DNA from: a virus
Reading direction: 5' to 3' (one strand)
DNA: 64,000 nt
Virus record (IMG/VR): IMGVR_UViG_3300045988_054045
The stretch's first letter is position 1, and the number at the start of each line of letters is the position of its first letter. Of this stretch, positions 7,463 to 45,211 are shown piece after piece. The position numbers and the translations under genes are program-made. The notes under the pieces are model-generated. The model searched no databases. It had not been told where the DNA came from and saw nothing but the letters and a program-made list of their open reading frames with translations.

Positions 7463-7463
7463 G

Positions 7464-8051
7464 TTACTTTAGTTTAGGTACATATCCTTCAACTGCACCA
7501 GCACGAAGACCTGTAGCAGCCTTCTGTTTCTTCTTAATACGAGCTTCTAAAGCATCTAATTCATCCAATACTTTAGATATAGATGACATTTCCCCAATAA
7601 CATCTTTAGCTTTAAATATAGGCTTACCAGTAATTGGGTCACGTTCCTGTAAATCAGAACCTTCATTGAAATAATCAATTAGTTCATCTACCTTATTCTG
7701 AGCTGCCCTTATTAATTTAATGTCTCTTGCTGATTCCTGTATCTCTCTATATTTTCTACACGCTGCCCTAAATAGAGGGTCATTAAATTCCTCCTCTGTA
7801 ATGCCACTATCTTGTTTGGCTGCTTCATTACGTTCAGCTTCAGTAAATTGTGAATAGTGTGATTGCCAATCAATCATTAGGTACATATACGTGAACTCTC
7901 TAAAGGCTCTAGTTTTCTTAGTGCCCTTTGGGTCTTCTTTGGTGATATTTCTATCATTAGTCCATAACTCAGAGAACTCCTTAATAAGAAGAATCTCTGG
8001 TTCGTTTAGCCTTAATTCGTGATTTACATTATCATATAGAAATATTGTCAT
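7464..8051 (-). CDS. hypothetical protein (195 aa), upstream of terL
   Basis: ORF ends 2 nt before the terL start. Small-terminase position only; no motif seen. Confidence 0.5.
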   Translation of the reverse strand: MTIFLYDNVNHELRLNEPEILLIKEFSELWTNDRNITKEDPKGTKKTRAFREFTYMYLMIDWQSHYSQFTEAERNEAAKQDSGITEEEFNDPLFRAACRKYREIQESARDIKLIRAAQNKVDELIDYFNEGSDLQERDPITGKPIFKAKDVIGEMSSISKVLDELDALEARIKKKQKAATGLRAGAVEGYVPKLK

Positions 8052-22640: not shown

Positions 22641-23310
22641 TCCATAATTAAGGCAGGTTCTCCGCGAGGAGAATAGGTGAAAGTACAAGTGCTTAGGTTG
22701 ATTACTGTGAATCGAGTAACTGAAGACCTGTGCTCACTTGGTATAAGAAGAAGCGTTTAATAGTGTACATAAAAGCGTGGATACTCAGAGCACCAAGTAT
22801 GGTTGTAGGTAAAAAACTCAATAACTTTCCAAGACATTGAGGACACCAGTTTCTTTACTATAAAATGCGCGCAAACTACCAAAAGGTGTGAGTTGCTGCT
22901 TGTAAAGTTTTAGGTGTAAAATGCGTTGATAATCTTTACTGAAAGGATTATTCACTTGTGGACAAAGACTATAATGGGTACGCCCTGAGACTAATGCAGA
23001 GCATCTCTTATTCCAAACAGTATGACCTTGATACTGGAGAGATGTCTTATCGAGACGGTAAGGCAAAGTATTGTGAAGTTGTTTGCGCACTAGCAACTGA
23101 AGACAGTCACGTACGATTTAATGACAGAGGTTATTAAATGACTGTAGGCACAGGAAAGTCTTGTTTATTGTAAAATTCCAAATATTTTTATGGAGAATAT
23201 AATTTCTCGATACCCCGTGAAGGGGTCGGCATCATGACTAAGCCTTTACGTGGCGATGCTATAAGTATATCTTATAACTAGATAGAAACTAATTAGTCAT
23301 ATTGTTTAAT
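22641..23310 (+). ncRNA. unclassified large structured RNA candidate (about 670 nt)
   Basis: No convincing ORF. GNRA-capped TTCTCC-GCGA-GGAGAA (22658-22673), ACCCC-GTGAA-GGGGT (23212-23226), many other stems. Confidence 0.3.
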
Positions 23311-25679: not shown

Positions 25680-26227
25680 GGGCTTGTATGGTTTTGACAG
25701 GTGATTACAAGTTATGAGGACGTGTAGAGTTGGCACCAACTCTTATAAAATGATGCGCAAATTTAAGTGGCAACACTGTTTACAGAATGGTAGCTTAAGC
25801 TACTGGCTTATTAGTATTAACATATTAATATAGTCGGGTTAATGGAGAAGACCTAGAAACAGAAGAGGTGTGGGAAGAAGCATTATAGGAGCAGCCCACT
25901 TAACTTGAAAGCCAAAGGTTAGTAAAGCTGAGATTCTCCGCAAATGTGTATAGTAGGGACGCAAGGGTTTTACCTAAAAGTGCTACTCGTTCTTCAACGT
26001 AAATGAAGTGGTGGAGAGGATGACTTCGGTCAGCCCTATAGTTTGGTAGCTTGTAAATATAGCTTTACGTGTATTGTTGCCTTCATTGCGATGGAAACTA
26101 GGATGCAAATAAGTCTATTAAAACTATCTATATGCCAGAACTCACTGGCTGATGTAATATAAATGAGACACACGTTATCCTTATAATAAGGATTGTCTGG
26201 ACGGCAGTTCGATTCTGCCCAAGTCCA
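25680..26227 (+). ncRNA. ssrA: tmRNA-like RNA
   Basis: 5' GGGCTTG-TATGGTTTTGACAGG. 3' GGAC-GGCAG-TTCGATT-CTGCC-CAAGTCC-A. 7-bp acceptor with G3:U70. Candidate tag frame 25757-25798 with its stop in a hairpin loop. Confidence 0.6.
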
Positions 26228-26241
26228 CTTGAACTATAAAA

Positions 26242-26260
26242 ACTTACCTCAGAGGTAAGT
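26242..26260. terminator. hairpin between the tmRNA-like 3' end and the convergent HNH gene
   Basis: ACTTACC-tcaga-GGTAAGT. Confidence 0.4.
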
Positions 26261-26808
26261 CAGCTGTTGATAATATTAGCTGAAATAACTCTGAGGTATT
26301 CTCTTGTTTGCTCGTCACTCATAGTATTTTTCATATAGTTAATGGGAGTTGAAATAAATTGAATATTTCCAACTTCATATGGTCTGTCTGAATCAATTCT
26401 ATCAAGTGATGCTCGTATTGTGACATCTAAAGTATTAACATTACCGTTTTCTGGCAATGTTAGCCTCAATTTAGTGTAAGGACATACTCCTTGTTGGAGT
26501 TCCCATTGCTCTTGTAAATCTTCAAGAGTAAGTGTGCATCCTTTATATCTTCTCTTAGCACATCTAAGAGAATATCTAAATGGTGTAAATTCATCTCTGT
26601 GGTTATTAGAATATTGAGATATGTTATGATTAGGGTTAGTTGGCTTAGCTCTGTGTGAGTTATTATACCTAGCTGCACAACTTCTACTACAAAAGTTCTT
26701 CTTATCTAACCTGATGTTTCTCTCATACTCTGATTTAGCTTTAGTGGCTTCTTTACCACAGCAATCACAAATAAATTGGACTTGTGTTCGGTGATTTCTA
26801 CTTTCCAT
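26260..26808 (-). CDS. HNH-type homing endonuclease
   Basis: N-terminal Cys pairs (CDCCGK...CSRSC). C-terminal SLDRIDSDRPYEVGNIQFISTPINYMKN motif. Only minus-strand gene in this region. Start set at ATG 26808. Confidence 0.7.
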   Translation of the reverse strand: MESRNHRTQVQFICDCCGKEATKAKSEYERNIRLDKKNFCSRSCAARYNNSHRAKPTNPNHNISQYSNNHRDEFTPFRYSLRCAKRRYKGCTLTLEDLQEQWELQQGVCPYTKLRLTLPENGNVNTLDVTIRASLDRIDSDRPYEVGNIQFISTPINYMKNTMSDEQTREYLRVISANIINS

Positions 26809-26870
26809 ATTATATAATTTAATATGCAAATATACGAAATTTTGTGGAAACGAACAAGTTAAATATTGTT

Positions 26871-26895
26871 AGGGTTCGACTCCGCCCAAGTCCAC
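26871..26895 (+). repeat. displaced tmRNA/tRNA 3'-end copy (GGGTTCGACTCCGCCCAAGTCCACA)
   Basis: Shares the CCCAAGTCCAC end with 26218-26228. Confidence 0.55.
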
Positions 26896-28030: not shown

Positions 28031-28275
28031 AAAGAGTGTACATTCAAATCATTGACCCAATTAATGGCACGTGTGTAAATGCGTGCCATGAATATCCTGA
28101 TGGTTATACTCAAGCTATTGACGCTACTCTCAGACAGTATGATGTGTATGATACTGGATATAGAGTTAAGGTTGTGGATGAAGAGGAAAAGTTTCCTATA
28201 ATGCCTGAATATATGAGGCTCTATGGAACTGTATCTGGTACATCTAAGCTAATAAATATGACAATCATAGGATAA
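28027..28275 (+). CDS. hypothetical protein (82 aa)
   Basis: ATGA overlap with the ParB-like gene. Confidence 0.5.
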   Translation: MKRVYIQIIDPINGTCVNACHEYPDGYTQAIDATLRQYDVYDTGYRVKVVDEEEKFPIMPEYMRLYGTVSGTSKLINMTIIG

Positions 28276-36089: not shown

Positions 36090-36119
36090 TAGTAGATTTG
36101 CTGTGAAGTAAGTCTACTA
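36090..36119 (+). other. GTGAAG-loop hairpin
   Basis: TAGTAGA-tttgctgtgaagtaag-TCTACTA, 3 nt before tRNA-Trp. Confidence 0.4.
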
Positions 36120-36122
36120 TAT

Positions 36123-36194
36123 GCGTCGGTGGCATGATGGGGAAGCAACGGTCTCCAAAACCGTGATATGGGGGTTCGAATCCCTCACGGCGTG
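36123..36194 (+). tRNA. tRNA-Trp(CCA)
   Basis: GCGTCGG/ACGGCGT (2 GU pairs, 1 mismatch). Stem ACGGT/ACCGT, loop CTCCAAA. Confidence 0.7.
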
Positions 36195-36211
36195 CAAGCG
36201 ATTAGTTAATA

Positions 36212-36279
36212 AGAAGACTTACAGCAAACATTTTGATTATAGCAGTATTTTGGACCGCAAATATCAACAATAGTCTTCT
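36212..36279 (+). other. stem-closed leader cassette
   Basis: AGAAGACT-TACAGCAAA...AGTCTTCT-GTTAAAT-tRNA. Confidence 0.5.
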
Positions 36280-36286
36280 GTTAAAT

Positions 36287-36360
36287 TGGGAGGTAGGACA
36301 ATGGGCTAGTCTACTACATTTGGGATGTAGAGGTTGCGAGTTCGAATCTCGTCCTCCCAA
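36287..36360 (+). tRNA. tRNA-Pro(UGG)
   Basis: TGGGAGG/CCTCCCA. Loop TTTGGGA. Confidence 0.85.
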
Positions 36361-36383
36361 CACATTTATGGTTAAGTTATATA

Positions 36384-36535
36384 AGAATACTTACAGCAAA
36401 ACTTAAAGCAAATTCAAACAAATCGTAATTTTGTCTTAAACGTAGGTTCGATTCCTGCCCTCCCCACCATTGTGTGTTATTATAAGGGGAGGTTGAAATG
36501 TTGGTGTAGTCCGAGAGGGCGAAAGAAAGTATTCT
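36384..36535 (+). ncRNA. permuted tRNA-like module b
   Basis: AGAATACT-TACAGCAAA...GTAGG-TTCGATT-CCTGC-CCTCCCC-ACCA, a 16-nt loop, then GGGGAGG...AGTATTCT. Confidence 0.45.
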
Positions 36536-36541
36536 GACAAT

Positions 36542-36614
36542 GGGGAGGTAGCATAATTGGCTAATGCGCTAGATTTGCAATCTGGAGGATTGGGTTCGAG
36601 TCCCACCTGCTCCA
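36542..36614 (+). tRNA. tRNA-Ala(UGC)-like
   Basis: GGGGAGG/CTGCTCC (G3:U70, one A-G mismatch). Loop TTTGCAA. One T-stem mismatch. Confidence 0.55.
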
Positions 36615-36699
36615 CAACTCTTATAGAGTTATTCGTTAATAATGTATTATTGAAACTAACCCAAATAGAGAACATAAGAACTCATAAGAAGTATTCTAT

Positions 36700-36770
36700 G
36701 TAGGGTTGCCCGAGCGGTTAGGGGCTGGTCTGCAAAACCAGTCAGAACGGTTCAACTCCGTTACCCTACT
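36700..36770 (+). tRNA. tRNA-Cys(GCA)
   Basis: GTAGGGT/ACCCTAC. Loop CTGCAAA. Confidence 0.85.
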
Positions 36771-36790
36771 CTATTTTTAGTTAAACTACA

Positions 36791-36908
36791 AGAAGTCTAA
36801 CAGCAAAACCTCAAGCCTTGTAAGCCGTAGGTAATTGGTTCGAATCCAATAAGTGGGAATTTCCCATTTTAGCTCATTTGGATAGAGCAACGTATTAAAA
36901 TGACTTCT
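36791..36908 (+). ncRNA. permuted tRNA-like module c
   Basis: AGAAGTC-TAACAGCAAAA...ATTGG-TTCGAAT-CCAAT-AAGTGGGA, a 3-nt loop, then TCCCATTT-D arm (GCTC ATTTGGATA GAGC)...GACTTCT. Confidence 0.5.
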
Positions 36909-36910
36909 GA

Positions 36911-36943
36911 ACCCACATCTATTGTTAATACAGTAATGTGGGT
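36911..36943 (+). other. hairpin between module c and tRNA-Lys
   Basis: ACCCACAT...ATGTGGGT. Confidence 0.4.
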
Positions 36944-36947
36944 ATTT

Positions 36948-37021
36948 CACTCCGTAGCTCAGCTGGTTAGAGCACCAAACTTTTAATTTGGGGGTCCTGG
37001 GTTCAAATCCCAGCGGAGTGA
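36948..37021 (+). tRNA. tRNA-Lys(UUU)
   Basis: CACTCCG/CGGAGTG. Loop CTTTTAA. Confidence 0.85.
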
Positions 37022-37052
37022 CAAGGTGCTCAGACACCTCCTTTCAACCATA

Positions 37053-37271
37053 AGGGGACGTACAGCAAAATGTACTTATACTAACAAATGATTGAACCGT
37101 GTCTGTCGAAGTAATCCCTTCAATGGGTGCAGATGGGCTAGAGAAGTACACTCGAATAAAATGTAATAAGCTGTGAATTAGCCTTGACCATGCTGGGTAA
37201 GTATGGTGTCTCACATTCTGAATTGGGAGAATGGTAGACATTAAAAGTAAACCCATGTCCCCTGTTAAACC
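37053..37271 (+). ncRNA. large stem-closed cassette (219 nt) with ACAGCAAAA
   Basis: AGGGGAC-GTACAGCAAAA...GTCCCCT-GTTAAAC, followed by a terminator rather than a tRNA. Confidence 0.4.
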
Positions 37272-37274
37272 CAT

Positions 37275-37322
37275 CCTAGAATTTCTGTTTCGGGAGGTAG
37301 GATGGGTTTATTTCACTAACAA
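37275..37322 (+). terminator. intrinsic terminator
   Basis: AAACCCATCCTA...TAGGATGGGTTT followed by ATTT. Confidence 0.6.
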
Positions 37323-37501
37323 GATTGACATATTCTATTCAGTAACACTTATTAATTATGAAAGCAATTAAATTGATTAAGAAAGCTGTTAAGTGGTATT
37401 TTGATAGGACTGCTAATTCCTACATTTACCCTACTGGAACTCTCCCTATTATAAAGGAGTAAGTTCCTATGCTGCTGAAGGGAATGTCAATAAAAACTTA
37501 T

Positions 37502-37589
37502 GGAGGTTTGCCAGAACGGTAATGGAACGGACTTGAAATCCGATGTAACGTACCCATTCGTTGAGTAGGTTCGACTCCTACAGCCTCCT
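37502..37589 (+). tRNA. tRNA-Ser(UGA), type II, CCA encoded
   Basis: GGAGGTT/AGCCTCC. Loop CTTGAAA. 21-nt variable arm. T73 followed by genomic CCA. Confidence 0.75.
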
Positions 37590-37612
37590 CCACTTTAAAC
37601 AAACAGATTATT

Positions 37613-37930
37613 ATGTTAGGAAGATTTAGAAAAGCTAATGTGCTTAGTAAGAAGAAACTAGGGCACATTTATGACACAGCTATGAAGGCTGTAGGCAGAG
37701 AACCTGTAATAATTGAAGCTATCGCAGGTGGGTTTAGTGATGAGTGTAAGAAGTTGGTAGAAGAACGGTTTGAGTATCTTGAAGCTGTTATATCTACTGG
37801 TAAGTTTTACAAAACACCACGTAAACTAAAGAAGAGAATATGCAAGGATATATCTGCTAGATTTAATCTGTGCGTGATTGTCCTGAATCAATGGGATGAT
37901 TATAAACTTATAAACAAGAAAGAAGCATGA
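37613..37930 (+). CDS. hypothetical protein (105 aa)
   Basis: ORF track. Confidence 0.55.
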   Translation: MLGRFRKANVLSKKKLGHIYDTAMKAVGREPVIIEAIAGGFSDECKKLVEERFEYLEAVISTGKFYKTPRKLKKRICKDISARFNLCVIVLNQWDDYKLINKKEA

Positions 37931-37996
37931 TTGACGTATTAATAGCAGACATTGTATTTGATTGGACTTTCCTCAAACCTTTAATTGAGAGAGACG

Positions 37997-38257
37997 ATGG
38001 AAAGAAAGAATCAAATGAAGTGGATGAATCCACGCAACAAGTATTGGCGCAGGCAGAAGTTAGTCCAGAAATATATTACTAGACTAAAGAAGTTTCCTGC
38101 AAGTAGTTACGGATTATGGTGTGATAACTATAATCAACACTGGACTTTATCTTACAAAACTACAAGTACTCCATGTAGTTGTTGGTTGTGTAAAGGTGAA
38201 AGATATAATAGAAGAAAATTTAAGGAAGAAACTAAACTTGAGATAGAAATGTTTTAA
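37997..38257 (+). CDS. hypothetical basic protein (86 aa)
   Basis: ORF track; start moved to the ATG. Confidence 0.5.
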   Translation: MERKNQMKWMNPRNKYWRRQKLVQKYITRLKKFPASSYGLWCDNYNQHWTLSYKTTSTPCSCWLCKGERYNRRKFKEETKLEIEMF

Positions 38258-38272
38258 GTTATTTAATCTATA

Positions 38273-38414
38273 AGAAGTCTAACAGCAACTTTATTAGCAA
38301 TTTCGATTATGGTTCGACTAGTTTGGGTTCGAATCCCAACAACCTCCCAAAGTATAACTAATATGGAGGTTGTAGTGTAAGGGTTAGCACAGTATATGCA
38401 AAAAAATGACTTCT
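38273..38414 (+). ncRNA. permuted tRNA-like module d
   Basis: AGAAGTC-TAACAGCAA...TTGGG-TTCGAAT-CCCAA-CAACCTCC, a 17-nt loop, then GGAGGTTG-TA-GTGT AAGGGTTA GCAC...GACTTCT. Confidence 0.5.
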
Positions 38415-38420
38415 GATGAT

Positions 38421-38493
<73 letters not shown>

Positions 38494-38508
38494 CTAATTA
38501 ATAAAATT

Positions 38509-38712
38509 ATGGTGGAAATTAAGAAAGAGATTACACAATGTAGAGAATGCCCCTATTGTAGAATTGTTCCTGACCCAGACCCTGATGACTGGTTCAACGA
38601 TGATGATGAGAAGGCTCTCTGCACAGAATCAGGAAATAGACTGATTGAAGGAATGTTAAGACCTTATGAAAAGGTAATAATTCCAGATTGGTGTCCTTTA
38701 AAGGCTAACTAA
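38509..38712 (+). CDS. Cys-rich small protein (67 aa)
   Basis: CRECPYC...WCP. Confidence 0.5.
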   Translation: MVEIKKEITQCRECPYCRIVPDPDPDDWFNDDDEKALCTESGNRLIEGMLRPYEKVIIPDWCPLKAN

Positions 38713-38913
38713 ACTCAAGTACCCAATTCCGTACACCAAAAGGTTAAAATGGGGAAGTGGTTCTAAGTGCGGATAGCTAGTAGTTAGCCTTTTTACAATA
38801 AATTAGACCGAGGTTGTGGTTAGGTGAAATGCCTTAAGTAGGATGAGGGTACAACTCACTGGTGACGCGTCACTGGTCATAAATGGAAGTGGATGTACGT
38901 GTAGGTCTTATAT

Positions 38914-38986
38914 GGTGTTTATAGTTCAACGGTTAGAATAACTGATTGTGGTTCAGTAGACGTGGTTTCGACTACCACTAGACACC
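38914..38986 (+). tRNA. tRNA-His(GUG) with encoded G-1
   Basis: G-1 pairs with C73. GTGTTTA/TAGACAC. Loop TTGTGGT. Confidence 0.85.
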
Positions 38987-39081
38987 CTTTAGTAATGGGT
39001 TTTAAAATAAAATCTTCCTGTTTGTTTACCATTACTTAACGTGGTTTAGAAGGGTTACACGAGATAACAATCCTTCCTCTT

Positions 39082-39153
39082 GGGGCGGTAGCTCAATGGT
39101 AGAGCGCAGGTCTGAAGAGCCTGGCGTTGGAGGTTCGATTCCTCCTCGCCCCA
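39082..39153 (+). tRNA. tRNA-Phe(GAA)
   Basis: GGGGCGG/TCGCCCC. Loop CTGAAGA. Confidence 0.85.
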
Positions 39154-39168
39154 CGTCGATTAGTAGAT

Positions 39169-39293
39169 AAGGACTAACAGCAATTTATCTTTTGTAGCCA
39201 AAGCAGCGGGTCTGGGGTTCGAGTCCCCACATTAGATTCGTCTAATAGTAGCTCAGGCGGTAGAGCAGCAGCCTAATAACAAAGATAGTCCTT
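39169..39293 (+). ncRNA. permuted tRNA-like module e
   Basis: AAGGACT-AACAGCAA...TGGGG-TTCGAGT-CCCCA-(C)ATTAGA, a TTCG tetraloop, then TCTAAT-canonical D arm GCTC AGGCGGTA GAGC...CAAAGAT-AGTCCTT. Confidence 0.55.
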
Positions 39294-39332
39294 AGCTGTT
39301 TTACAGAATTACAGGGTAAAGAAATTCTGTAT

Positions 39333-39420
39333 GGAGAGTAAACCTTGATGGTGATAGGGGCTACCTGCTAAGTAGTTTCGTACATAAAAAGTGTATGTGG
39401 TTCGATTCCACTGCTCTCCG
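39333..39420 (+). tRNA. tRNA-Ser(GCU), type II
   Basis: GGAGAGT/GCTCTCC. Loop CTGCTAA. 19-nt variable arm. G73. Confidence 0.75.
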
Positions 39421-39463
39421 CGAATGTTTGGAACTTTTATTATAACTTAAAAAACTTATTGTT

Positions 39464-39757
39464 ATGAATGAGGTTCAAGTATTAAATCCGAAGACGTTGG
39501 AACAAACTCCATCTCTTCCTAATGTTGTCATAGCTGTAATTAATCAGCTTATAAAGAAGTATTGGAATGGTAGTTGCAGTACCATTCGTGTAAATGATAT
39601 TCTAGTATTTGTTGGTTTAGCCACTACTTATCCCATTGAAAGCATTATGAGTAGTAACTGGGTTGAGACTGCTAAGGCTTTATACCAAAGCTGTGGTTAT
39701 AAAGTCTCGGAAATAAGTAGGGGTGAGGACAAGTACTTAGAGTTTAAACTGAGTTAA
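39464..39757 (+). CDS. hypothetical protein (97 aa)
   Basis: ORF track. Confidence 0.55.
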   Translation: MNEVQVLNPKTLEQTPSLPNVVIAVINQLIKKYWNGSCSTIRVNDILVFVGLATTYPIESIMSSNWVETAKALYQSCGYKVSEISRGEDKYLEFKLS

Positions 39758-39758
39758 T

Positions 39759-39832
39759 GTTGGGTTAGACGAACTGGTCAAGTCACCACACTTTCAATGT
39801 GGAGATTAGGGGTTCGAGTCCCCTACCCAATA
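39759..39832 (+). tRNA. tRNA-Glu(UUC)
   Basis: GTTGGGT/ACCCAAT. Loop CTTTCAA. Confidence 0.8.
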
Positions 39833-39963
39833 CCTTGTAGTCCTCCTTAACCCTTAATAGGGTAGTTAGGCTACACTGTGAACGAACAGAGGAGAGAAGT
39901 TCACACGTTGGCTAGCAACGTAGTACACAATGGTAGGATAGGAACGGCTAGCACCTACCACAT

Positions 39964-40035
39964 AGCCCTATCTACTAATGGTCAGGTAATTGCCCTCTCA
40001 AGGCAAAAATACGGGTTCGAATCCCGTTGGGGTTA
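39964..40035 (+). tRNA. tRNA-Glu(CUC)
   Basis: AGCCCTA/TGGGGTT. Loop CTCTCAA. Confidence 0.75.
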
Positions 40036-40040
40036 CTATA

Positions 40041-40181
40041 ACTATCAAGTGTAAAATCTTACTACGATGCCCAAACGAGCCAAATGTGTTTTGGGAGAAA
40101 TGAAAAGAAGACAAAGGACAGGAAGGAATCCGAAAGGGATTTAAATGATATTAATAGGGCTAATCCTTCCATCTTGATAGT
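40041..40181 (+). ncRNA. stem-closed structured element (141 nt) upstream of a tRNA
   Basis: ACTATCAAG...CTTGATAGT terminal stem with nested GGAAGGAT..ATCCTTCC. Lies 8 nt before the tRNA at 40190. Confidence 0.4.
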
Positions 40182-40189
40182 TATTTAAC

Positions 40190-40258
40190 GAGTGTGAAGT
40201 GTTACGGTAGCATACCGCCCTGTCACGGCGGCGGAGGGGTTCGACTCCCACACATTCG
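40190..40258 (+). tRNA. tRNA-Asp(GUC)-like, short T stem
   Basis: GAGTGTG/CACATTC. Stem CCGCC/GGCGG, loop CTGTCAC. The T stem has only 3-4 bp. Confidence 0.5.
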
Positions 40259-40280
40259 GCTTGTATTTATCATTAGTACA

Positions 40281-40423
40281 AGAAGGCTTACAGCAAATTT
40301 TATCTCTAAGTATTCAATTGGTAAGTGAAAGACGCAGGGTTCGAATCCTTGCCTATACCGTCAAAGTCCTGTTGGGTATAGTCGTTTAGTGGTAAGATGT
40401 ATTAGAAAACAGGCGTGCCTTCT
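40281..40423 (+). ncRNA. permuted tRNA-like module f
   Basis: AGAAGGC-TTACAGCAAA...CAGGG-TTCGAAT-CCTTG-CTATACC, a 15-nt loop, then GGTATAG-D arm (AGTGGTAA)...GCCTTCT. Confidence 0.5.
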
Positions 40424-40424
40424 G

Positions 40425-40448
40425 AGCACACATCTAAGTATGTGTGCT
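40425..40448 (+). other. hairpin between module f and tRNA-Thr
   Basis: AGCACACAT-ctaagt-ATGTGTGCT. Confidence 0.4.
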
Positions 40449-40453
40449 AATTT

Positions 40454-40526
40454 GCCTCCGTAGCTCAATAGGCAGAGCAACTCACTTGTAATGAGAAGGT
40501 TGTAGGTTCGATTCCTATCGGAGGCT
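40454..40526 (+). tRNA. tRNA-Thr(UGU)
   Basis: GCCTCCG/CGGAGGC. Loop CTTGTAA. Confidence 0.85.
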
Positions 40527-40533
40527 CAAAATT

Positions 40534-40572
40534 AGTCCTATTTGTTAGCAATAACAGTAGGACTTATTCTTT
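40534..40572 (+). terminator. intrinsic terminator candidate
   Basis: AGTCCTA...TAGGACT followed by TATTCTTTC. Confidence 0.5.
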
Positions 40573-40642
40573 CTAAATAGCAAGATTCTCAGTTAGTACT
40601 ACAAAGATTAGCATTTGCAAATGTTATTATGTAAAATGAATT

Positions 40643-41020
40643 ATGAGTAGCTTTAAAGACGGATTAAGGAGAAGTGGTCAGAGTGTACTTGATGCAAGGG
40701 CGCAGAACTTGTATGAAATGACAAAAATTGAAGAGGAACGATTCATCCAAGAATGTAAGATGAAAGTTCTTCGTATCAAGAATGAGTTAAACAAGCACAG
40801 AGACCTATCTGTAAAATCCACTACTTCGTTGGAAGTTGGTAATGGCTTTGACCCTAAGGCTTGGGTTGCTAAGAGACATCAATTGGAACGTGACTTACGA
40901 GTTGCTAACATTGAATATGCTCTTGCACTTAAAGTTGATGGTGAAGAGTTCCCAGCTGACGAAACTGAGGAAATGATTAATGTAGCAGAAGTGCTAGAAG
41001 ACGATGCTAAATTGAAGTAA
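40643..41020 (+). CDS. hypothetical protein (125 aa)
   Basis: ORF track; first gene of the vWA/PurA-like operon. Confidence 0.55.
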   Translation: MSSFKDGLRRSGQSVLDARAQNLYEMTKIEEERFIQECKMKVLRIKNELNKHRDLSVKSTTSLEVGNGFDPKAWVAKRHQLERDLRVANIEYALALKVDGEEFPADETEEMINVAEVLEDDAKLK

Positions 41021-41022
41021 TT

Positions 41023-41955
41023 ATGGGAAGTGGAAGTTATTCCTTTGCAGCTTATTCTGCATTATCTACCGATAGAGGGTATGCAACCAAGTCAGCTGAT
41101 GCTGTCTTTACGAATCACACTCTATCAGCAAAGTCAGACATTAAATTGTCTAACGTAAATGCAAGAAACTATAACACACAGGTTAAACCAGAAATGATTA
41201 ACACTGGTGTTAGGGAAAGTAGAGATAGCAACGAACATCCTGAAACTACTCCGATTATCATTGCTCTTGATGTTACTGGTTCAATGCGTAGAACACCCCA
41301 TGAAATGATTAAGGATAACTTCCCTAAACTCATGGATGCTCTAATGCAACTGGGAGTCAAAGACCCGCAGCTGTTATTTATGGCTGTTGGCGACCATGAG
41401 TATGATAGGTATCCTATTCAAGTTGGACAATTTGAATCTGATACTGAGAAGATTGTAAACTCTCTTGAAGAGTTTGTACTCGAAGGTGGTGGAGGTGGAA
41501 ATAGTGGTGAGAGCTACTTATTGGCTCATATAATTGCTGGCTATCACACTGAAACAGACTCATGGTTTAAAAGACACAAGAAGGGTTATCTATTCACCAT
41601 TGGTGATGAACCCAACTTGCACGGCATCAGTGGACGTGCTTTGGAAGATTTCTTAGGCTATCAACACCCTGCTAATCCTATTAGCGAGGAAGAGGCTGTC
41701 AAGAAAGCTCAAGAGCAATATAACGTCTATCATATTCATGTTACTAATGGTAGCTATGGTACAAGAATTGCTCCAGGTTGGAAGAATCTACTTGGACAGA
41801 ATGTACTTACTTGTGATTCACACAATGTTCACAACGTAATTGCTGAAGCCATTAAGCAACACGAAGACCTCACTGGAGTACCCTATGAAGCAGAAGCAGT
41901 AGTGGATGCCCCAACGACCAGTGCAGGTGAAGAAAGTGGAACTTATACCTATTAA
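41023..41955 (+). CDS. vWA domain protein (TerY-like)
   Basis: MIDAS IIALDVTGSM, later FTIGDEPN. Confidence 0.7.
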   Translation: MGSGSYSFAAYSALSTDRGYATKSADAVFTNHTLSAKSDIKLSNVNARNYNTQVKPEMINTGVRESRDSNEHPETTPIIIALDVTGSMRRTPHEMIKDNFPKLMDALMQLGVKDPQLLFMAVGDHEYDRYPIQVGQFESDTEKIVNSLEEFVLEGGGGGNSGESYLLAHIIAGYHTETDSWFKRHKKGYLFTIGDEPNLHGISGRALEDFLGYQHPANPISEEEAVKKAQEQYNVYHIHVTNGSYGTRIAPGWKNLLGQNVLTCDSHNVHNVIAEAIKQHEDLTGVPYEAEAVVDAPTTSAGEESGTYTY

Positions 41956-41961
41956 GAAAAG

Positions 41962-43068
41962 ATGAATGAAATTGTATTAGGCTCGTTCTTTGGTGACGAG
42001 GGTAAAGGGCAAACCGTCCATAATTTATGTAAGGCACATCCTAAAGAAGAAACAATAGTTATTCGATTCAGTGGCGGACATCAAGTTGGTCATACTGTAA
42101 GGCATGGTAAACTTGAACACACGTTTAGTAATTATGGTAGTGGAACTTTACTTGGCATACCAACATACTGGTCTAAATACTGTACTGTAGACCCTATTAC
42201 TACTATGGGAGAATTGGTAGACTTAAATAAGCTCGGAGTCTATCCAGAGATTATCTACCATCCACTCTGCGAGGTTGTTACTCCCTTTGATGTTATTAAT
42301 CAATGGAATAATGAGGAGAACCTTAAACATGGTACTGTAGGCACAGGATTCAAATCTGCTCTCGATAGAGTAGCCGCTGGTTATCATATTACTGTTCGAG
42401 ATTGTGCTAATATCATGGTTCTAAGAGCCAAGATTGCATCACTTATTAAGAACTACTATGATTTCAGTTCCAGCCTTCCAATGTATAATATTGATGATTG
42501 GTGTGTTAGAGTGCATGAGTACTTCAAATCTGTAACAATATATGACGAGAATATTCTTACTCGTTATAAATACAAGGTCTTTGAGGGTTCACAAGGTATA
42601 TTACTAGACCAGAGATTTGGTATAATGCCTTATTGTACTCCAAGTAACACTACTTGTCAAAATGCTATGGAAATTATTAACAGGATAAAGCAAGTATCTA
42701 AGAATCACTTAGATAGAATGACGGAAGAGATAACAGACCATGTGTATGTTATCAGACCATATATTACCAGACATGGTAATGGTCCAATTCCTACTTCTAA
42801 ACCTGTTAGAGCTGTAGATGACCCTAATAATCAGTTCAATGAGTTCCAAAAGACTCTTAGGGCTGTGGAGTTCGATGTTAAATTATTCGAACACGCATTA
42901 TTAGTAGATTCTACTTTCATCCCAAACCATTATACACACAGGAGGATGTTAGTTATCACCCATAAGGATGAAATTACATCACAGTTCAACGATGAACTAC
43001 TTTCTGGTAATTGGGAAGGACAATTTAGTGGCATGAATTTATCTTACTATGATGAACTCATGGTATAG
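41962..43068 (+). CDS. short adenylosuccinate synthetase family protein (PurA/PurZ-like)
   Basis: P-loop GSFFGDEGKGQ, RFSGGHQVGHT, GTVGTGFKS. 368 aa against about 430 for PurA. Confidence 0.7.
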   Translation: MNEIVLGSFFGDEGKGQTVHNLCKAHPKEETIVIRFSGGHQVGHTVRHGKLEHTFSNYGSGTLLGIPTYWSKYCTVDPITTMGELVDLNKLGVYPEIIYHPLCEVVTPFDVINQWNNEENLKHGTVGTGFKSALDRVAAGYHITVRDCANIMVLRAKIASLIKNYYDFSSSLPMYNIDDWCVRVHEYFKSVTIYDENILTRYKYKVFEGSQGILLDQRFGIMPYCTPSNTTCQNAMEIINRIKQVSKNHLDRMTEEITDHVYVIRPYITRHGNGPIPTSKPVRAVDDPNNQFNEFQKTLRAVEFDVKLFEHALLVDSTFIPNHYTHRRMLVITHKDEITSQFNDELLSGNWEGQFSGMNLSYYDELMV

Positions 43069-43078
43069 AATTATTGTA

Positions 43079-43173
43079 AGACGACTCACAGCAAAGAAAA
43101 TATTATGACTTTAAAATAGTGAACCCCTCTGCTGCCCATTGCGGAGGTTAAAGAGTTAGTGGGAAGGTCGTCT
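43079..43173 (+). other. stem-closed leader cassette
   Basis: AGACGACT-CACAGCAAA...GGTCGTCT-GTTCCAT-tRNA. Confidence 0.5.
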
Positions 43174-43180
43174 GTTCCAT

Positions 43181-43252
43181 TGGGCTATAGTGTAATGGTT
43201 AGCACACAACACTTTGACTGTTGTAGTCTAGGTTCGAATCCTGGTAGCCCAA
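43181..43252 (+). tRNA. tRNA-Gln(UUG)
   Basis: TGGGCTA/TAGCCCA. Loop CTTTGAC. Confidence 0.85.
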
Positions 43253-43269
43253 CATAAAGATTAAATCTT

Positions 43270-43572
43270 ATGAAGGCAATGAAGGATAAGAGAAAATTCG
43301 GAGGAGCATCTCCAGTATCTAAGAATCGTAACTGTAAGAAATTCGGATATAGTTATGATAAAGAGGTAAGGAGAATCTGGCGAATTGAGGCAAGACAGTT
43401 AGCTCATAAAATACTAATGCACCTACCTGTTAGTAGAGAGGAAATTCAAGCAGCATGGAGCAATCCATATACTGATAGCTCTGTGTTAGGTGTTCCTTAT
43501 ATATGGGACGGAGAAGGTTACTACGATAGATGGGTAGAGCAGGTGTATAAAAAACTAAACAACGTGATATGA
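43270..43572 (+). CDS. hypothetical basic protein (100 aa)
   Basis: ORF track. Confidence 0.55.
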   Translation: MKAMKDKRKFGGASPVSKNRNCKKFGYSYDKEVRRIWRIEARQLAHKILMHLPVSREEIQAAWSNPYTDSSVLGVPYIWDGEGYYDRWVEQVYKKLNNVI

Positions 43573-43742
43573 TTTACACAAGAGTAATTCTAGTATTGCT
43601 AATTATACTAATTTTGGTATATTATGCTATGATTGTTGCTCACCTTTCTGGTGTTATTAATCTTACTGAGAGAAAGATAACTTTTGGTAAGTTATGTATT
43701 CCGTTTTATTACTGGATACACCAAGAAGGTGAAAATGTTTAA
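43569..43742 (+). CDS. small membrane protein (57 aa)
   Basis: ATGA overlap. Hydrophobic VILVLLIILILVYYAMIVA segment. Not in the track. Confidence 0.45.
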   Translation: MIYTRVILVLLIILILVYYAMIVAHLSGVINLTERKITFGKLCIPFYYWIHQEGENV

Positions 43743-43762
43743 TGTTAAATGAGTAGAAGAAA

Positions 43763-44986
43763 ATGAGTCAACCTAAAGTTAAGAAAAGTACAATCTTTGC
43801 TATCTTGGCAGGAGTAATTGTAGTCGTGTTAGTTTGCCTATCTGGAGCACTCTTTGAGGATGCAGATAAGTCTAAGAACTATGTGTGTCAAATGCCTGTA
43901 ACAGGTGAGTATGTCGTTTGGACTGATGGTGGTCTACAATGGCAAGGTTTGGGTAATAAACACGAGTATTTCAAAACCTCCCAAGTAGAGTTTTCAGGTC
44001 TAGAAGAGGTTAGTGAGGGTAACTATGTAGCATCAGGTGCTAATCCTGCAGCAGCATTAACCTTCAATGATAAGGGTAGAGGCTTTATTATAGGCTCTTT
44101 CCGAGTTGTTATGCCTAATGATGATTCTAATATGAAGAAAATTCAGCAGGACTTTGGTTCTGAAAAGGCATTGATAGCTAATCTAATTAAACCTACTTTA
44201 TATAAGGTTGTAACTTCTTGTGGTCCTCTAATGTCTTCACTAGAGTCTGTATCTGAGACAAGAACAGACTTGATTGCCTATATTACTGACCAGCTTAATA
44301 ATGGAGTGTATAAGACTACTGTAATTCGTGATTCAGTAACGAATGAAATTACTGGAGAAAAGGAGTTGAGAGCAAAGGCACAGATTGTGGCTGATACTAA
44401 CTCTCCGAGCGGTTATAAACGTCAGGAAACATCACCATTTAGTCAGTACGGCATTACTTGTGGCTTGGTATCTATCTTAGACATTAAGTATGATGCTGCT
44501 ACTCAATCTCAAATTGATGCTCAGAAGCAAGCTAACTTGGCTGTAATTACTTCTAAGACTAAGTCTTTGGAAGCTATTCAAAGAACTGTTCAGATTACTG
44601 AAGAGGGTAGAGCAGCAGCCGAGAGAGCTAAATGGGAGCAAGAGAAAGAGAAGGCAGTAGCAGTTACTAAGGCACAGCAAGAGTTTGAAGTAGCAGAACT
44701 TGAAGCTAAGAAAGCTAAACAAGTGGCTTTAAAGGTTCAAGCAGAAGGTGAAGCTAAGGCAGCAGCAAATAGAGCATTGGTTTCAGCAGGTTTAACTCCT
44801 GCCGAAAGAGCTGAATGGGATTATAAAACAGCTGTCGGTGTAGCACAAGCTCTAGCTGAATCTAAAGTATCATGGGTTCCATCAGTAATGTTTGGAGGAA
44901 ATGGTTCAAGTAATTCAGCTATGGATGCCGTAGGTTTGAAGATGTTATTGGACATTACTAAGTCTTTTGATAAGACAAGTAAATAA
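43763..44986 (+). CDS. SPFH/band-7-like membrane protein
   Basis: N-terminal TM segment, globular core, then a long A/E/K coiled coil (AERAKWEQEKEKAVAVTKAQQEFEVAELEAKKAK). Confidence 0.5.
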   Translation: MSQPKVKKSTIFAILAGVIVVVLVCLSGALFEDADKSKNYVCQMPVTGEYVVWTDGGLQWQGLGNKHEYFKTSQVEFSGLEEVSEGNYVASGANPAAALTFNDKGRGFIIGSFRVVMPNDDSNMKKIQQDFGSEKALIANLIKPTLYKVVTSCGPLMSSLESVSETRTDLIAYITDQLNNGVYKTTVIRDSVTNEITGEKELRAKAQIVADTNSPSGYKRQETSPFSQYGITCGLVSILDIKYDAATQSQIDAQKQANLAVITSKTKSLEAIQRTVQITEEGRAAAERAKWEQEKEKAVAVTKAQQEFEVAELEAKKAKQVALKVQAEGEAKAAANRALVSAGLTPAERAEWDYKTAVGVAQALAESKVSWVPSVMFGGNGSSNSAMDAVGLKMLLDITKSFDKTSK

Positions 44987-45074
44987 TAAAACATAGGTTG
45001 TCGGACTAGTGGGCAACCTTCCGTAATCAGTCGGACGTTGGGAGCTTATAGCCCTACGATAGTGTGGCTAAATC

Positions 45075-45149
45075 GGACCTATAGCTCAGTCTGGTCAGAG
45101 CAGCTGACTCATAATCAGAAGGTCGGGGGTTCAAAGCCCTCTAGGTCCA
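45075..45149 (+). tRNA. tRNA-Met or Ile2 (CAU)
   Basis: GGACCTA/TAGGTCC. Loop CTCATAA. Confidence 0.8.
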
Positions 45150-45211
45150 CATCTGTTTATCGGAAGATAGATAGTATAGATTGGTACAGCCTAGGACAAT
45201 GTATTAATCTA

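What the first reader, a model, noticed from the sequence alone, without database searches (positions are those of the whole stretch)
25680..26227. Phage-encoded tmRNA-like gene with an unusual tag
The 5' end GGGCTTG-TATGGTTTTGACAGG parallels the tmRNA 5' consensus (GGGGCUGAUUCUGGAUUCGAC). The 3' end GGAC-GGCAG-TTCGATT-CTGCC-CAAGTCC-A gives a T arm and a 7-bp acceptor with the G3:U70 alanine identity pair. An internal frame, GCA AAT TTA AGT GGC AAC ACT GTT TAC AGA ATG GTA GCT TAA (25757-25798), would encode the tag ANLSGNTVYRMVA. Its stop codon sits in the loop of the perfect hairpin GTAGC-TTAA-GCTAC (25790-25803), as in tmRNA helix 5. At 548 nt the gene is long, and the tag does not end in the usual ALAA.
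Basis: partly seen in the sequence, partly recalled or inferred. Interest (0 to 1): 0.7.

Follow-up and report, generated by a model that had tools for sequence, protein, structure and literature searches.

The report
Oversized tmRNA gene in gut phage
A crAss-like human-gut phage carries its own, unusually long copy of tmRNA, the bacterial ribosome-rescue RNA; the standard phage annotation tool misses it, but phage tmRNAs are already known, so it is a new member of a known kind.

Summary
Window 25680-26227 (+) matches Rfam tmRNA RF00023 end to end (70.2 bits, cut-off 47, E 3e-25).

I collected 40 distinct relatives from gut-phage contigs of up to about 200 kb. All keep a 7-bp acceptor stem, G3:U70, discriminator A and a 5-bp T arm. 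Compensatory changes support helix 2, PK1, helix 5 and a further pseudoknot.

Translation should resume at GGC 25769, giving (A)GNTVYRMVA. This codon follows a UAAGU frame-setting motif and lies 12 nt after PK1. The proposed GCA 25757 is ACA in the two nearest relatives.

All 12 family tags end in [R/K]M[A/V]A. Bacteroidota host tags end in YALAA.

The gene is about 150 nt longer than host ssrA (397-401 nt). The extra length is an enlarged pseudoknot domain with blocks invariant across the family.

ARAGORN misses 37 of the 40 genes and gives the wrong tag for the other three.

No smpB lies in the window. The phage has a crAss-like portal and 36 tRNAs.

The last ~20 nt of the gene arrived with a ~640-bp HNH endonuclease cassette. 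The displaced original 3' end remains at 26873-26894. In one relative a group I intron sits at the same T-loop site.

Verdict: a genuine, selected tmRNA and a new member of a known kind. Interest is moderate.

The parts
25680..26227 (+). tmRNA (ssrA-like) gene, 548 nt, one-piece standard form, no encoded CCA
   Evidence: RF00023 at 70.2 bits against a cut-off of 47, E 2.9e-25, model 1-374. 40 distinct homologues were found.
25680..25686 (+). Acceptor stem, 5' strand GGGCUUG (G3 of the G3:U70 alanine identity pair)
   Evidence: 7/7 pairs in 40/40 relatives across 4 stem variants, with G3:U70 always kept.
25687..25697 (+). D-loop analogue UAUGGUUUUGA
   Evidence: Aligned to the tmRNA consensus. 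The 5' 19 nt are 18/19 identical to Prevotella sp. BV3P1 ssrA.
25698..25725 (+). Helix 2, 5' strand
   Evidence: Pairs with 26170-26199. 13 of its 22 pairs show changes on both sides, and 96-100% of cells are paired (helices 1-3).
25726..25756 (+). Pseudoknot 1: P3 AGAGUU/AACUCU (25726-25731 with 25738-25743); P4 GCA/UGC (25733-25735 with 25754-25756)
   Evidence: P3 never varies. P4 shows a C:G to U:A swap (10 versus 19 sequences). The 10 relatives with a different PK1 module do not form P4 (helices 4-5).
25764..25768 (+). Frame-setting pentamer UAAGU directly upstream of the resume codon
   Evidence: A(-4) in 40/40 and U(-5) in 38/40 relatives. Bacteroidota ssrA genes carry the same kind of UAAnU motif. 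The role of the equivalent E. coli U85/A86 is described in PMC2481249.
25769..25798 (+). Tag reading frame GGC AAC ACU GUU UAC AGA AUG GUA GCU UAA, giving GNTVYRMVA plus stop
   Evidence: Resume position from the Rfam alignment. There are 12 different family tags of 9-11 aa, all in frame and all ending [R/K]M[A/V]A.
25789..25804 (+). Helix 5 hairpin with the UAA stop in its UUAA loop
   Evidence: 100% of cells paired. The Ala-to-Val codon change (GCA to GUA) in the window and its two nearest relatives is compensated on the 3' strand (C:G 37, U:A 3, helix 6).
25805..26169 (+). Enlarged pseudoknot domain (365 nt), including the long-range pairing GGAGAA 25844-25849 with UUCUCC 25934-25939 and several blocks invariant across the family
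   Evidence: The long-range helix has 4 of 6 pairs with changes on both sides (helix 9). Other helices are 7-8 and 10-17. Invariant blocks are listed. No similarity to host ssrA in this region.
26170..26199 (+). Helix 2, 3' strand
   Evidence: helices 1-3.
26203..26219 (+). T arm GGCAG-UUCGAUU-CUGCC
   Evidence: 5/5 pairs in 40/40 relatives. 4 of 5 pairs show changes on both sides (helix 18).
26220..26227 (+). Acceptor stem 3' strand CAAGUCC plus discriminator A. It is followed by CUU, so CCA must be added after transcription.
   Evidence: Host Bacteroides and Parabacteroides ssrA genes also lack an encoded CCA.
26232..26872 (-). Inserted cassette holding an HNH/endonuclease VII-type gene (ORF 26260-26829, minus strand) and a long inverted repeat (26234-26309). 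Its left end, within about 26206-26231, supplies the present T-loop and 3' end of the tmRNA.
   Evidence: Relatives that are 95% identical (L036, L043) run straight from window 26231 to 26873. Family hits: phrog_3322, phrog_1035 and phrog_3118. Homologues lie at the tmRNA 3' end in L016 (downstream, same layout) and L054 (inside the T-loop intron).
26873..26894 (+). Displaced remnant of the ancestral tmRNA 3' end (GG-UUCGACU-CCGCC-CAAGUCC-A)
   Evidence: Identical to the 3' end of the L036 and L043 tmRNAs.

Best explanation
This is a genuine tmRNA gene kept under selection by a large crAss-like phage of gut Bacteroidales. Related contigs reach 186-200 kb, so the phage is probably in the Zeta group.

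Shown by computation:
- The RNA has all the defining tmRNA modules.
- Its stems covary across 40 distinct relatives.
- It carries a conserved short reading frame behind a conserved frame-setting motif.
- Its tRNA-like ends resemble Bacteroidales ssrA.

Inferred mechanism:
1. The RNA is made during infection, probably co-transcribed with the upstream + strand genes. RNase P cuts its 5' end, and CCA is added because it is not encoded.
2. Host AlaRS charges it with alanine through G3:U70.
3. Host SmpB and EF-Tu deliver it to ribosomes stalled on broken or stop-less mRNAs.
4. Translation resumes at GGC 25769 and adds A-GNTVYRMVA, then stops at UAA in the helix-5 loop.
5. The ribosome is recycled. 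The non-polar C-terminus probably sends the product to host proteases.

Together with 36 phage tRNAs covering all 20 amino acids, the gene would add ribosome-rescue capacity while the phage, or host defence nucleases, damage mRNAs.

The present 3' end of the gene is a replacement copy that arrived with a homing-endonuclease cassette, and it leaves the gene intact.
For: - Model match: RF00023 full-length hit above the curated cut-off. 14 of 16 related loci tested also pass it, as does L001.
- tRNA-like domain: 40/40 relatives have 7/7 acceptor pairs in 4 stem variants, G3:U70, discriminator A and 5/5 T-arm pairs.
- Covariation: in a named structure of 109 pairs, 91.6% of cells are paired against 37-46% when partners are slid. 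43 pairs change on both sides against 5-16 when slid. The covariation score is 0.228 against 0.05-0.07. None of 500 shuffles reached the observed values.
- Reading frame: there are 12 different tags of 27, 30 or 33 nt, always in frame between an invariant A(-4) and a stop in the helix-5 loop.
- Spacing: the resume codon is 12 nt after PK1.
- Host resemblance: Bacteroidota ssrA genes also resume at GGC after UAAnU and encode GE[T/N]NYALAA. The window's first 19 nt are 18/19 identical to Prevotella sp. BV3P1 ssrA.
- Genomic setting: in relatives the gene sits within or beside the phage tRNA array. In the window the array starts 5.4 kb downstream.
- Tag end: an -LVA ending gives LacI a half-life of about 13 min in E. 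coli, against about 8 min for -LAA (PMC3511798).
- Phage identity: terminase large subunit, portal and tail genes. The portal is 23-27% identical to crAss-like portals. The exact TerL sequence occurs on 383 contigs of up to 190.6 kb.
- Precedent: phage tmRNAs are known (PMC4131195; PMC7162821).
Against: - There is no expression, charging or tagging evidence. No promoter signal was found upstream.
- The Rfam score (70 bits) is about half that of host ssrA genes (120-160 bits).
- PK1 stem P4 has only 3-4 bp.
- The conserved tag end may reflect RNA-level rather than peptide-level selection. The nucleotides AGAAUGG are almost invariant, including third codon positions, and partly lie in helix 5.
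- No smpB lies in the 64-kb window or in about 0.5 Mb of relatives' flanks. The other roughly 120 kb of the genome could not be examined.
- Some relatives have altered 3' ends. L039 has lost the acceptor 3' strand, and L054 is split by an intron. Loss or interruption is therefore tolerated at least transiently.
- The window's own 3' end is chimeric, although its pairing is perfect.
Confidence: 0.8

Rival explanations
1. It rescues ribosomes but does not trigger ordinary degradation. The phage tag ([R/K]M[A/V]A instead of host YALAA) would give rescued products a different fate from host-tagged ones. They might be recognised poorly or differently by host proteases or adaptors, or read by a phage factor that binds the invariant pseudoknot blocks.
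For: The tag end is conserved across all 12 tag variants and differs from the GE[T/N]NYALAA found in 101 of 103 sampled Bacteroidota ssrA genes. The pseudoknot domain is enlarged, has invariant blocks and shows no similarity to host ssrA.
Against: The C-terminus is still non-polar and ends in Ala. An -LVA ending works as a degradation tag in E. coli. The conserved RM codons may be constrained at the RNA level. No phage factor has been identified.
Confidence: 0.12
2. It is a decoy that titrates host SmpB, AlaRS or EF-Tu and so inhibits host trans-translation. This has been proposed for the tRNA-like-domain-only molecule of mycobacteriophage DS6A.
For: The tRNA-like domain resembles the host's. 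No phage smpB was found nearby. [quoted passage not shown]
Against: A decoy needs only the tRNA-like domain. Here the frame-setting motif, the in-frame tag, the stop in helix 5, PK1 and helix 2 are all conserved and covary.
Confidence: 0.05
3. It is a passenger in the tRNA island. On this view it was captured from a host and persists mainly through linkage to tRNA genes and to the adjacent homing endonuclease, with little or no function.
For: An HNH cassette lies at its 3' end, with co-converted flanks. One relative has a truncated 3' end and another has an intron-split gene.
Against: Relatives are as little as about 68% identical yet keep every stem through compensatory changes, and they keep the reading frame through 3-nt indels. 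An unselected RNA gene would not do this. The pseudoknot domain is unlike any sampled host ssrA, so capture is not recent.
Confidence: 0.04
4. It is an attP-like copy of the host ssrA 3' end that the phage uses to integrate into the host tmRNA gene.
For: tmRNA genes are frequent integration sites for genomic islands (PMC11915505). A duplicated 3' end is present at 26873-26894.
Against: The gene is full length, not a 3' fragment. The duplication flanks a 640-bp endonuclease cassette inside the phage genome, not a phage-host junction. No integrase was seen among the window's annotated genes.
Confidence: 0.01

Closest known systems
Bacteroidota chromosomal ssrA/tmRNA (Rfam RF00023, standard one-piece form)
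   Same: 7-bp acceptor stem with G3:U70, T arm and D-loop analogue GGNUUUGAC. Helix 2 and PK1. A Gly (GGN) resume codon after UAAnU. A 9-11 aa tag that starts G-E/N-T and ends in Ala. No encoded CCA in the Bacteroides and Parabacteroides examples read. The 5' 19 nt are 18/19 identical to Prevotella sp. BV3P1.
   Different: The gene is 548 nt (507-601 in the family) against 397-401 nt. The region between helix 5 and helix 2 has no detectable similarity and is about 145 nt longer, with its own invariant blocks. The tag ends RM[A/V]A rather than YALAA. The Rfam score is 70 bits against 120-160 bits.
Known phage tmRNAs: mycobacteriophage Bxz1 group, Bacillus phage G and huge phages (PMC4131195, PMC7162821)
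   Same: The tmRNA is carried by a large phage alongside a big tRNA set and is presumed to support translation during infection.
   Different: The host phylum and phage lineage differ (crAss-like). The huge-phage tmRNAs of PMC7162821 were assigned with ARAGORN, whereas ARAGORN misses 37 of 40 members of this family. The huge-phage genomes of PMC7162821 include SmpB, and I found smpB-like ORFs in Lak megaphage records. None is in this window. I found no mention of tmRNA in two crAss-like comparative papers.
Mycobacteriophage DS6A tRNA-like-domain-only tmRNA
   Same: A phage-borne tmRNA derivative whose tRNA-like domain resembles the host's.
   Different: DS6A lacks the mRNA part. This gene keeps the frame-setting motif, the tag frame and helix 5.
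Intron-form tmRNA genes with a group I intron in the T-loop; those at subsite 3 are reported only from class Bacteroidia (PMC11915505)
   Same: Relative L054 has a group I intron (RF00028, 94.4 bits) between T-loop nucleotides 2 and 3, which is subsite 3. Splicing would restore a perfect T arm.
   Different: The window has no intron. A related HNH gene lies just after an intact gene, with the old 3' end displaced. The L054 endonuclease is HNH-type and on the opposite strand, whereas the endonuclease genes that paper detected were LAGLIDADG.
Free-standing homing endonucleases in phage tRNA clusters, such as T4 SegB (PMC2330249)
   Same: An endonuclease gene embedded among phage translation-RNA genes, present or absent between close relatives, with flanking sequence co-converted.
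   Different: The family differs (HNH/endonuclease VII-like against GIY-YIG). Here the cassette carries a replacement copy of the target gene's 3' end. Cleavage activity and target are untested.

Membership tests
tmRNA (RF00023, standard one-piece form) | Covariance-model score above the curated gathering cut-off over the full model | tested here: met
   70.2 bits against 47, model 1-374, E 2.9e-25.
tmRNA (RF00023, standard one-piece form) | 5' and 3' ends form a 7-bp acceptor stem with the G3:U70 alanine identity pair and a discriminator A | tested here: met
   Window 7/7 pairs. 40/40 relatives, 4 covarying stem variants, G3:U70 invariant.
tmRNA (RF00023, standard one-piece form) | T arm with a tRNA-like T-loop; no anticodon arm; long helix 2 joining the tRNA-like domain to the rest | tested here: met
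   T arm 5/5 pairs, 4 of 5 with changes on both sides. Helix 2 has 22 pairs, 13 with changes on both sides.
tmRNA (RF00023, standard one-piece form) | Pseudoknot 1 between helix 2 and the resume codon | tested here: met
   P3 is 6 bp and invariant. P4 is 3 bp with one C:G to U:A swap. It ends 12 nt before the resume codon. Support is modest, and 10 relatives carry a different module.
tmRNA (RF00023, standard one-piece form) | Resume codon set by an upstream pentamer with an essential A at position -4 | tested here: met
   UAAGU|GGC in the window. A(-4) in 40/40 and U(-5) in 38/40 relatives. Rule taken from PMC2481249.
tmRNA (RF00023, standard one-piece form) | Short tag frame ending at a stop codon in or near helix 5 | tested here: met
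   9 codons plus UAA in the UUAA loop. 12 in-frame tag variants in the family.
tmRNA (RF00023, standard one-piece form) | Tag ends in a non-polar degradation signal (typically ALAA) | tested here: inconclusive
   The window ends RMVA and the family ends RMAA. The end is non-polar and Ala-terminal, and -LVA works in E. coli. Recognition by Bacteroidales proteases is untested.
tmRNA (RF00023, standard one-piece form) | Further pseudoknots (PK2-PK4) between helix 5 and helix 2 | tested here: met
   At least one covarying pseudoknot (25844-25849 with 25934-25939) plus about 10 helices. The one-to-one equivalence to PK2-4 is not resolved, and the domain is enlarged.
tmRNA (RF00023, standard one-piece form) | Alanylation, SmpB binding and trans-translation activity | not testable with these tools
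   No expression or biochemical data. No smpB in the window. A search for smpB across related full-length contigs was saturated by E. coli prophage flanks.
crAss-like phages, Zeta group (PMC7886860, PMC12386605) | crAss-type structural genes (terminase large subunit and portal adjacent, portal homologous to crAss-like portals) | tested here: met
   TerL 5213-7462(-) and portal 2754-4976(-). The portal is 23-27% identical to portals of crAss-like phages, IAS virus, phi14:2 and DAC15.
crAss-like phages, Zeta group (PMC7886860, PMC12386605) | Genome of 145-192 kb with many tRNAs, introns and homing endonucleases | tested here: inconclusive
   Related contigs reach about 186-201 kb. The window has 36 tRNAs and an HNH cassette, and a relative has a group I intron. 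No tree against named Zeta genomes could be made, because PV725988 is not in the collection.

The most novel reading that the evidence does not exclude
The phage may run a partly separate trans-translation channel. Its tmRNA uses host charging and delivery factors. However, through a tag ending RM[A/V]A and an enlarged, invariant pseudoknot domain, it would mark or route rescued products differently from host tmRNA. This could keep ribosomes recycling when host defences or phage nucleases cut mRNAs. The locus is kept intact against homing-endonuclease invasion in two ways: a self-splicing intron in one relative, and a cassette-borne replacement 3' exon in this window.
Probability: 0.2. Interest if true: 0.65.

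Novelty: new member of a known kind. Interest (0 to 1): 0.4.

Why it matters
crAss-like phages are reported to dominate the human gut virome (PMC7886860). The exact terminase of this phage occurs on 383 public contigs.

Two comparative papers on crAss-like and Zeta phages do not mention a tmRNA. The usual detector in phage pipelines, ARAGORN, misses 37 of 40 members of this family and gives the wrong tag for the other three (pipeline use). Surveys that report how rare tmRNAs are in phages may therefore be biased low.

The phage tag (...RM[A/V]A) can be told apart from the host tag (...YALAA). In principle, metaproteomics or reporter assays could then show which proteins a phage tmRNA tags during infection. 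Why phages carry tmRNAs is still only a matter of hypothesis.

The 3' end also shows, side by side, two ways an essential RNA gene can survive homing-endonuclease invasion.

Tried and rejected
- **ARAGORN on the window and on the 40 homologues.** It made no call for the window. It made 3 calls among the 40, each with a spurious tag (VQQKDDRATVLNLKAKG).
- **Single-sequence MFE folding of the 548 nt.** The z-score was -1.13 and helix 2 was mis-paired. This is uninformative for a pseudoknotted RNA, so I used comparative analysis instead.
Rejected.
- **smpB search.**
  - The same query does detect Lak phage SmpB at 35-38% identity.
  - Pfam scans of the window ORFs found no SmpB.
  - An IMG/VR scan with an SmpB alignment was saturated by E. 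coli prophage flanks and said nothing about this family.
  - No smpB lies next to ssrA in the sampled host loci.
- **Fetching Zeta phage Lera (PV725988).** Not in the collection.
- **Promoter search.** Neither the sigma-70 scan nor the Bacteroides -7 motif TAnnTTTG gave a signal upstream of the gene or any enrichment.
- **Intron or intron remnant in the window.** None found.
- **Overlapping protein gene to explain the invariant blocks.** The longest ORF in the region is 45 aa.
- **An attP or prophage-junction reading of the duplicated 3' end.** Rejected, because the duplication flanks an internal 640-bp cassette.
- **A possible pairing of AGAAUGG (25784-25790) with UCGUUCU (25987-25993).** It has no compensatory support and conflicts with better-supported helices, so it is left unresolved.
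Full report

- 5' GGGCTTG pairs 7/7 with CAAGTCC at 26220-26226, including G3:U70.
- The T arm is GGCAG-TTCGATT-CTGCC (26203-26219), and the discriminator A is at 26227.
- The hairpin GTAGC-TTAA-GCTAC has an in-frame TAA in its loop.

Rfam's tmRNA model RF00023 aligns over its whole length (positions 1-374) to 25680-26230. The score is 70.2 bits against a gathering cut-off of 47. The E-value is 2.9e-25 for the whole window against all 4227 families.

ARAGORN reports 36 tRNAs in the window but no tmRNA.

**2. Relatives and comparative support**

blastn found two unannotated human-faecal phage contigs. An exact 20-mer from a conserved internal block found 55 IMG/VR loci on contigs of up to about 200 kb. 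These gave 40 distinct full-length homologues of 507-601 nt.

All 40 have:
- a 7/7 acceptor stem, in four variants (GGGCUUG/CAAGUCC, GGGCCUA/UAGGUCC, GGGCCAU/AUGGUCC and GGGCCUG/CAGGUCC, plus a G-U variant);
- G3:U70 and a discriminator A;
- a 5/5 T arm.

I wrote out a structure of 109 pairs in 18 helices, including two pseudoknot stems, and counted it on the alignment.

| Measure | Named structure | Partners slid by 1-3 columns |
|---|---|---|
| Cells paired | 91.6% | 37-46% |
| Pairs with changes on both sides | 43 | 5-16 |
| Covariation score | 0.228 | 0.05-0.07 |

None of 500 shuffles reached the observed values on these three measures or on the count of cells with a change on both sides; the count of further pair types was no higher than in the shuffles (341 of 500).

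The best-supported helices are:
- helix 2 (13 of 22 pairs with changes on both sides);
- the T arm (4 of 5);
- helix 5;
- PK1 stem P4 (a C:G to U:A swap);
- a long-range pairing GGAGAA/UUCUCC, 25844-25849 with 25934-25939 (4 of 6).

RF00023 also passes its cut-off in 14 of 16 related loci tested and in L001.

**3. The tag**

The reading frame is right, but the start is not. Four lines of evidence place the resume codon at GGC 25769.
- The Rfam alignment puts the consensus resume codon there.
- GGC is preceded by UAAGU. In E. coli the pentamer UAGUC sets the frame, and the A four nucleotides upstream of the resume codon is essential (PMC2481249).
- In the family A(-4) is invariant (40/40) and U(-5) is nearly so (38/40). 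The following codon is always GGN or GCN.
- GGC lies 12 nt after the 3' strand of PK1, the same spacing as in E. coli.

It is ACA in the two nearest relatives, which have an identical tag. In other relatives, indels in the T-run shift the frame between that position and GGC.

The encoded tag is therefore GNTVYRMVA, or AGNTVYRMVA with the alanine carried on the tmRNA.

The family has 12 different tags of 9-11 residues. All are in frame and all end in [R/K]M[A/V]A. The stop is TAA in 37 and TGA in 3.

The window's Val (GUA in place of GCA) is accompanied by a compensating change on the other strand of helix 5 (helix 6).

One caution applies. The nucleotides AGAAUGG are almost invariant, including third codon positions. 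Peptide-level and RNA-level selection on 'RM' therefore cannot be separated.

**4. Comparison with host ssrA**

I scanned representative bacterial genomes for a degenerate pattern encoding G-E-[T/N/K]-N-Y-A-[L/F]-A-A-stop.

Sixteen of these loci were scanned. All gave RF00023 hits at 83-160 bits. The 15 full-length genes are 397-401 nt and score 120-160 bits; the sixteenth hit (L112, 82.7 bits) is cut off at its locus end.

Of 103 genes parsed, 101 encode GE[T/N]NYALAA. They resume at GGN after UAAnU-type pentamers.

The phage gene shares the tRNA-like ends. Its first 19 nt are 18/19 identical to Prevotella sp. BV3P1 ssrA. The rare acceptor start GGGC occurs in only 6 of 103 host genes, among them Prevotella, Bacteroides and Alloprevotella.

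Between helix 5 and helix 2 there is no detectable similarity. That region is 365 nt in the window. It contains blocks that are identical in all 40 relatives, for example TTAACTTGAAAGCCAAAGGTTAGTA. No ORF longer than 45 aa overlaps the gene.

**5. The phage**

The window encodes a terminase large subunit (5213-7462, minus strand), a portal (2754-4976, minus strand) and a tail protein. The portal is 23-27% identical to portals of crAss-like phages.

The exact TerL sequence is on 383 public contigs, the longest 190.6 kb.

Several features fit the Zeta crAss-like group, described as 145-192 kb with many tRNAs and introns (PMC7886860; PMC12386605):
- genome size;
- 36 tRNAs covering all 20 amino acids;
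- G+C of about 37%;
- homing-endonuclease and intron content.

I could not place the phage on a tree against named Zeta genomes. Neither Zeta paper mentions tmRNA or SmpB.

No SmpB is encoded in the window. The rest of the genome could not be read, and the IMG/VR scan for SmpB was uninformative.

**6. What is known**

Phage tmRNAs have been described in the mycobacteriophage Bxz1 group and in Bacillus phage G. Phage DS6A carries a tRNA-like-domain-only form (PMC4131195). Huge phages also have them, and the huge-phage genomes of PMC7162821 also include SmpB.

The kind is therefore known. What is new is:
- the lineage (crAss-like);
- the size and the family-specific pseudoknot domain;
- the conserved RM[A/V]A tag end;
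- the failure of ARAGORN, which finds 3 of 40 and gives each the wrong tag.

The last point matters because the phage studies I checked all assign tmRNAs with ARAGORN.

**7. The 3' end is chimeric**

Relatives that are 95% identical (L036, L043) run straight from window 26231 to 26873. The intervening ~640 bp holds an HNH/endonuclease VII-type gene (26260-26829, minus strand) and a long inverted repeat.

Immediately after the insertion lies GGTTCGACTCCGCCCAAGTCCA (26873-26894). This is the exact 3' end of the relatives' tmRNA.

The present T-loop and 3' strand (TTCGATT-CTGCC-CAAGTCCA) therefore came in with the cassette. A matching change in the T-stem 5' strand (GGCGG to GGCAG) keeps the pairing perfect. 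L016 has the same layout, with an HNH protein 79% identical.

In L054 a related HNH gene (53% identical) lies inside a group I intron (RF00028, 94.4 bits, E 1.3e-24). This intron splits the tmRNA gene between T-loop nucleotides 2 and 3. Joining the exons restores a perfect T arm.

Introns at that T-loop subsite (position 3) have so far been reported only from class Bacteroidia (PMC11915505). The window itself has no intron or intron remnant.

The closest precedent for the free-standing arrangement is T4 SegB, a homing endonuclease in the T4 tRNA cluster (PMC2330249).

**8. Most likely mechanism**

Shown by computation: gene anatomy, covariation, the conserved frame and frame-setting motif, and host-like tRNA ends.

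Inferred:
1. The gene is co-transcribed with upstream + strand genes. Only 12 nt separate the upstream ORF's stop codon from the 5' end, most of them within a hairpin, and no promoter motif was found.
2. RNase P processes the 5' end and CCA is added.
3. Host AlaRS charges the RNA, and host SmpB and EF-Tu deliver it.
4. Translation resumes at GGC 25769 and terminates at UAA.
5. The tagged product is degraded through its non-polar C-terminus. An -LVA ending is a working degradation tag in E. coli.

The likely benefit is extra ribosome-rescue capacity, next to a complete phage tRNA set. That benefit would apply when mRNAs are being cut by the phage or by host defences.

I put 0.8 on a functional trans-translation RNA. 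The rivals are a differently routed tag, an SmpB decoy, a neutral passenger and an att site. They are listed with their evidence in the rival-explanations section.

**9. Verdict**

This is a new member of a known kind and of moderate interest.

Noticed in passing
window 26232-26894: An HNH/endonuclease VII-type gene (26260-26829, minus strand) is a ~640-bp insertion directly after the tmRNA. It is absent from relatives that are 95% identical. It brought a replacement T-loop and 3' end for the tmRNA and displaced the original 3' end, which survives as a 22-nt remnant at 26873-26894.
   Followed up: yes
L054 7740-8616 (relative on contig IMGVR_UViG_3300045988_023864): The tmRNA gene of this relative is split between T-loop nucleotides 2 and 3 by a group I intron (RF00028, 94.4 bits). 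The intron carries an HNH ORF on the opposite strand. This is the subsite so far reported only from Bacteroidia chromosomal tmRNA genes.
   Followed up: partly
L039 about 7392-7958: This relative's tmRNA has a normal T arm, but the acceptor 3' strand is replaced by unrelated sequence followed by a terminator-like hairpin. It is a possible pseudogene or rearranged allele.
   Followed up: no
window 28265-28360 and 28674-31225: A RAGATH-34 RNA (71.5 bits) lies just upstream of a DUF2828+DUF7788 gene (phrog_850, annotated 'RNA-binding protein'; possibly Ro60-like, from my own knowledge) and a DUF7873 gene. RAGATH-34 recurs 1-2 kb from the tmRNA in at least five relatives, which suggests a conserved RNA-protein module.
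   Followed up: partly
L021 444-516; L010 3518-3589: Relatives carry a RAGATH-1 hammerhead ribozyme and a Pistol ribozyme near the tmRNA/tRNA region. These phages are rich in small self-cleaving RNAs.
   Followed up: no
window 31648-50669: 36 tRNA genes, all on the + strand, cover all 20 amino acids. There are five CAU-anticodon genes and no suppressor anticodon. Several are unusually long (86-94 nt).
   Followed up: no
window 41962-43068: An adenylosuccinate-synthetase-like gene (Pfam PF00709) hits phrog_1211, whose annotation looks PurZ-like to me (from my own knowledge). This hints at 2-aminoadenine (Z-base) DNA. I did not test whether it is PurZ or PurA.
   Followed up: no
window 22811-22925: A 114-bp stretch is 98% identical to crAss-like phage cr109_1 and 88% identical to cr6_1, although the phages are otherwise only distantly related. 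It has no Rfam match. It may be a mobile or regulatory element.
   Followed up: partly
window 51060-55277: Two TerD-domain genes and a full-length P-type cation-transporting ATPase (832 aa) are encoded by the phage.
   Followed up: no
alignment A2 columns 454-483 (insertion point after window 26037): A ~31-nt hairpin (AGGTTTGAAAGCGTCAGCTTTCGAGCCTTAA) is present or absent in the tmRNA pseudoknot domain of otherwise close relatives and appears in several different backgrounds. The window lacks it. Tag type, acceptor type and pseudoknot modules are also reassorted among relatives, so the gene is mosaic.
   Followed up: no
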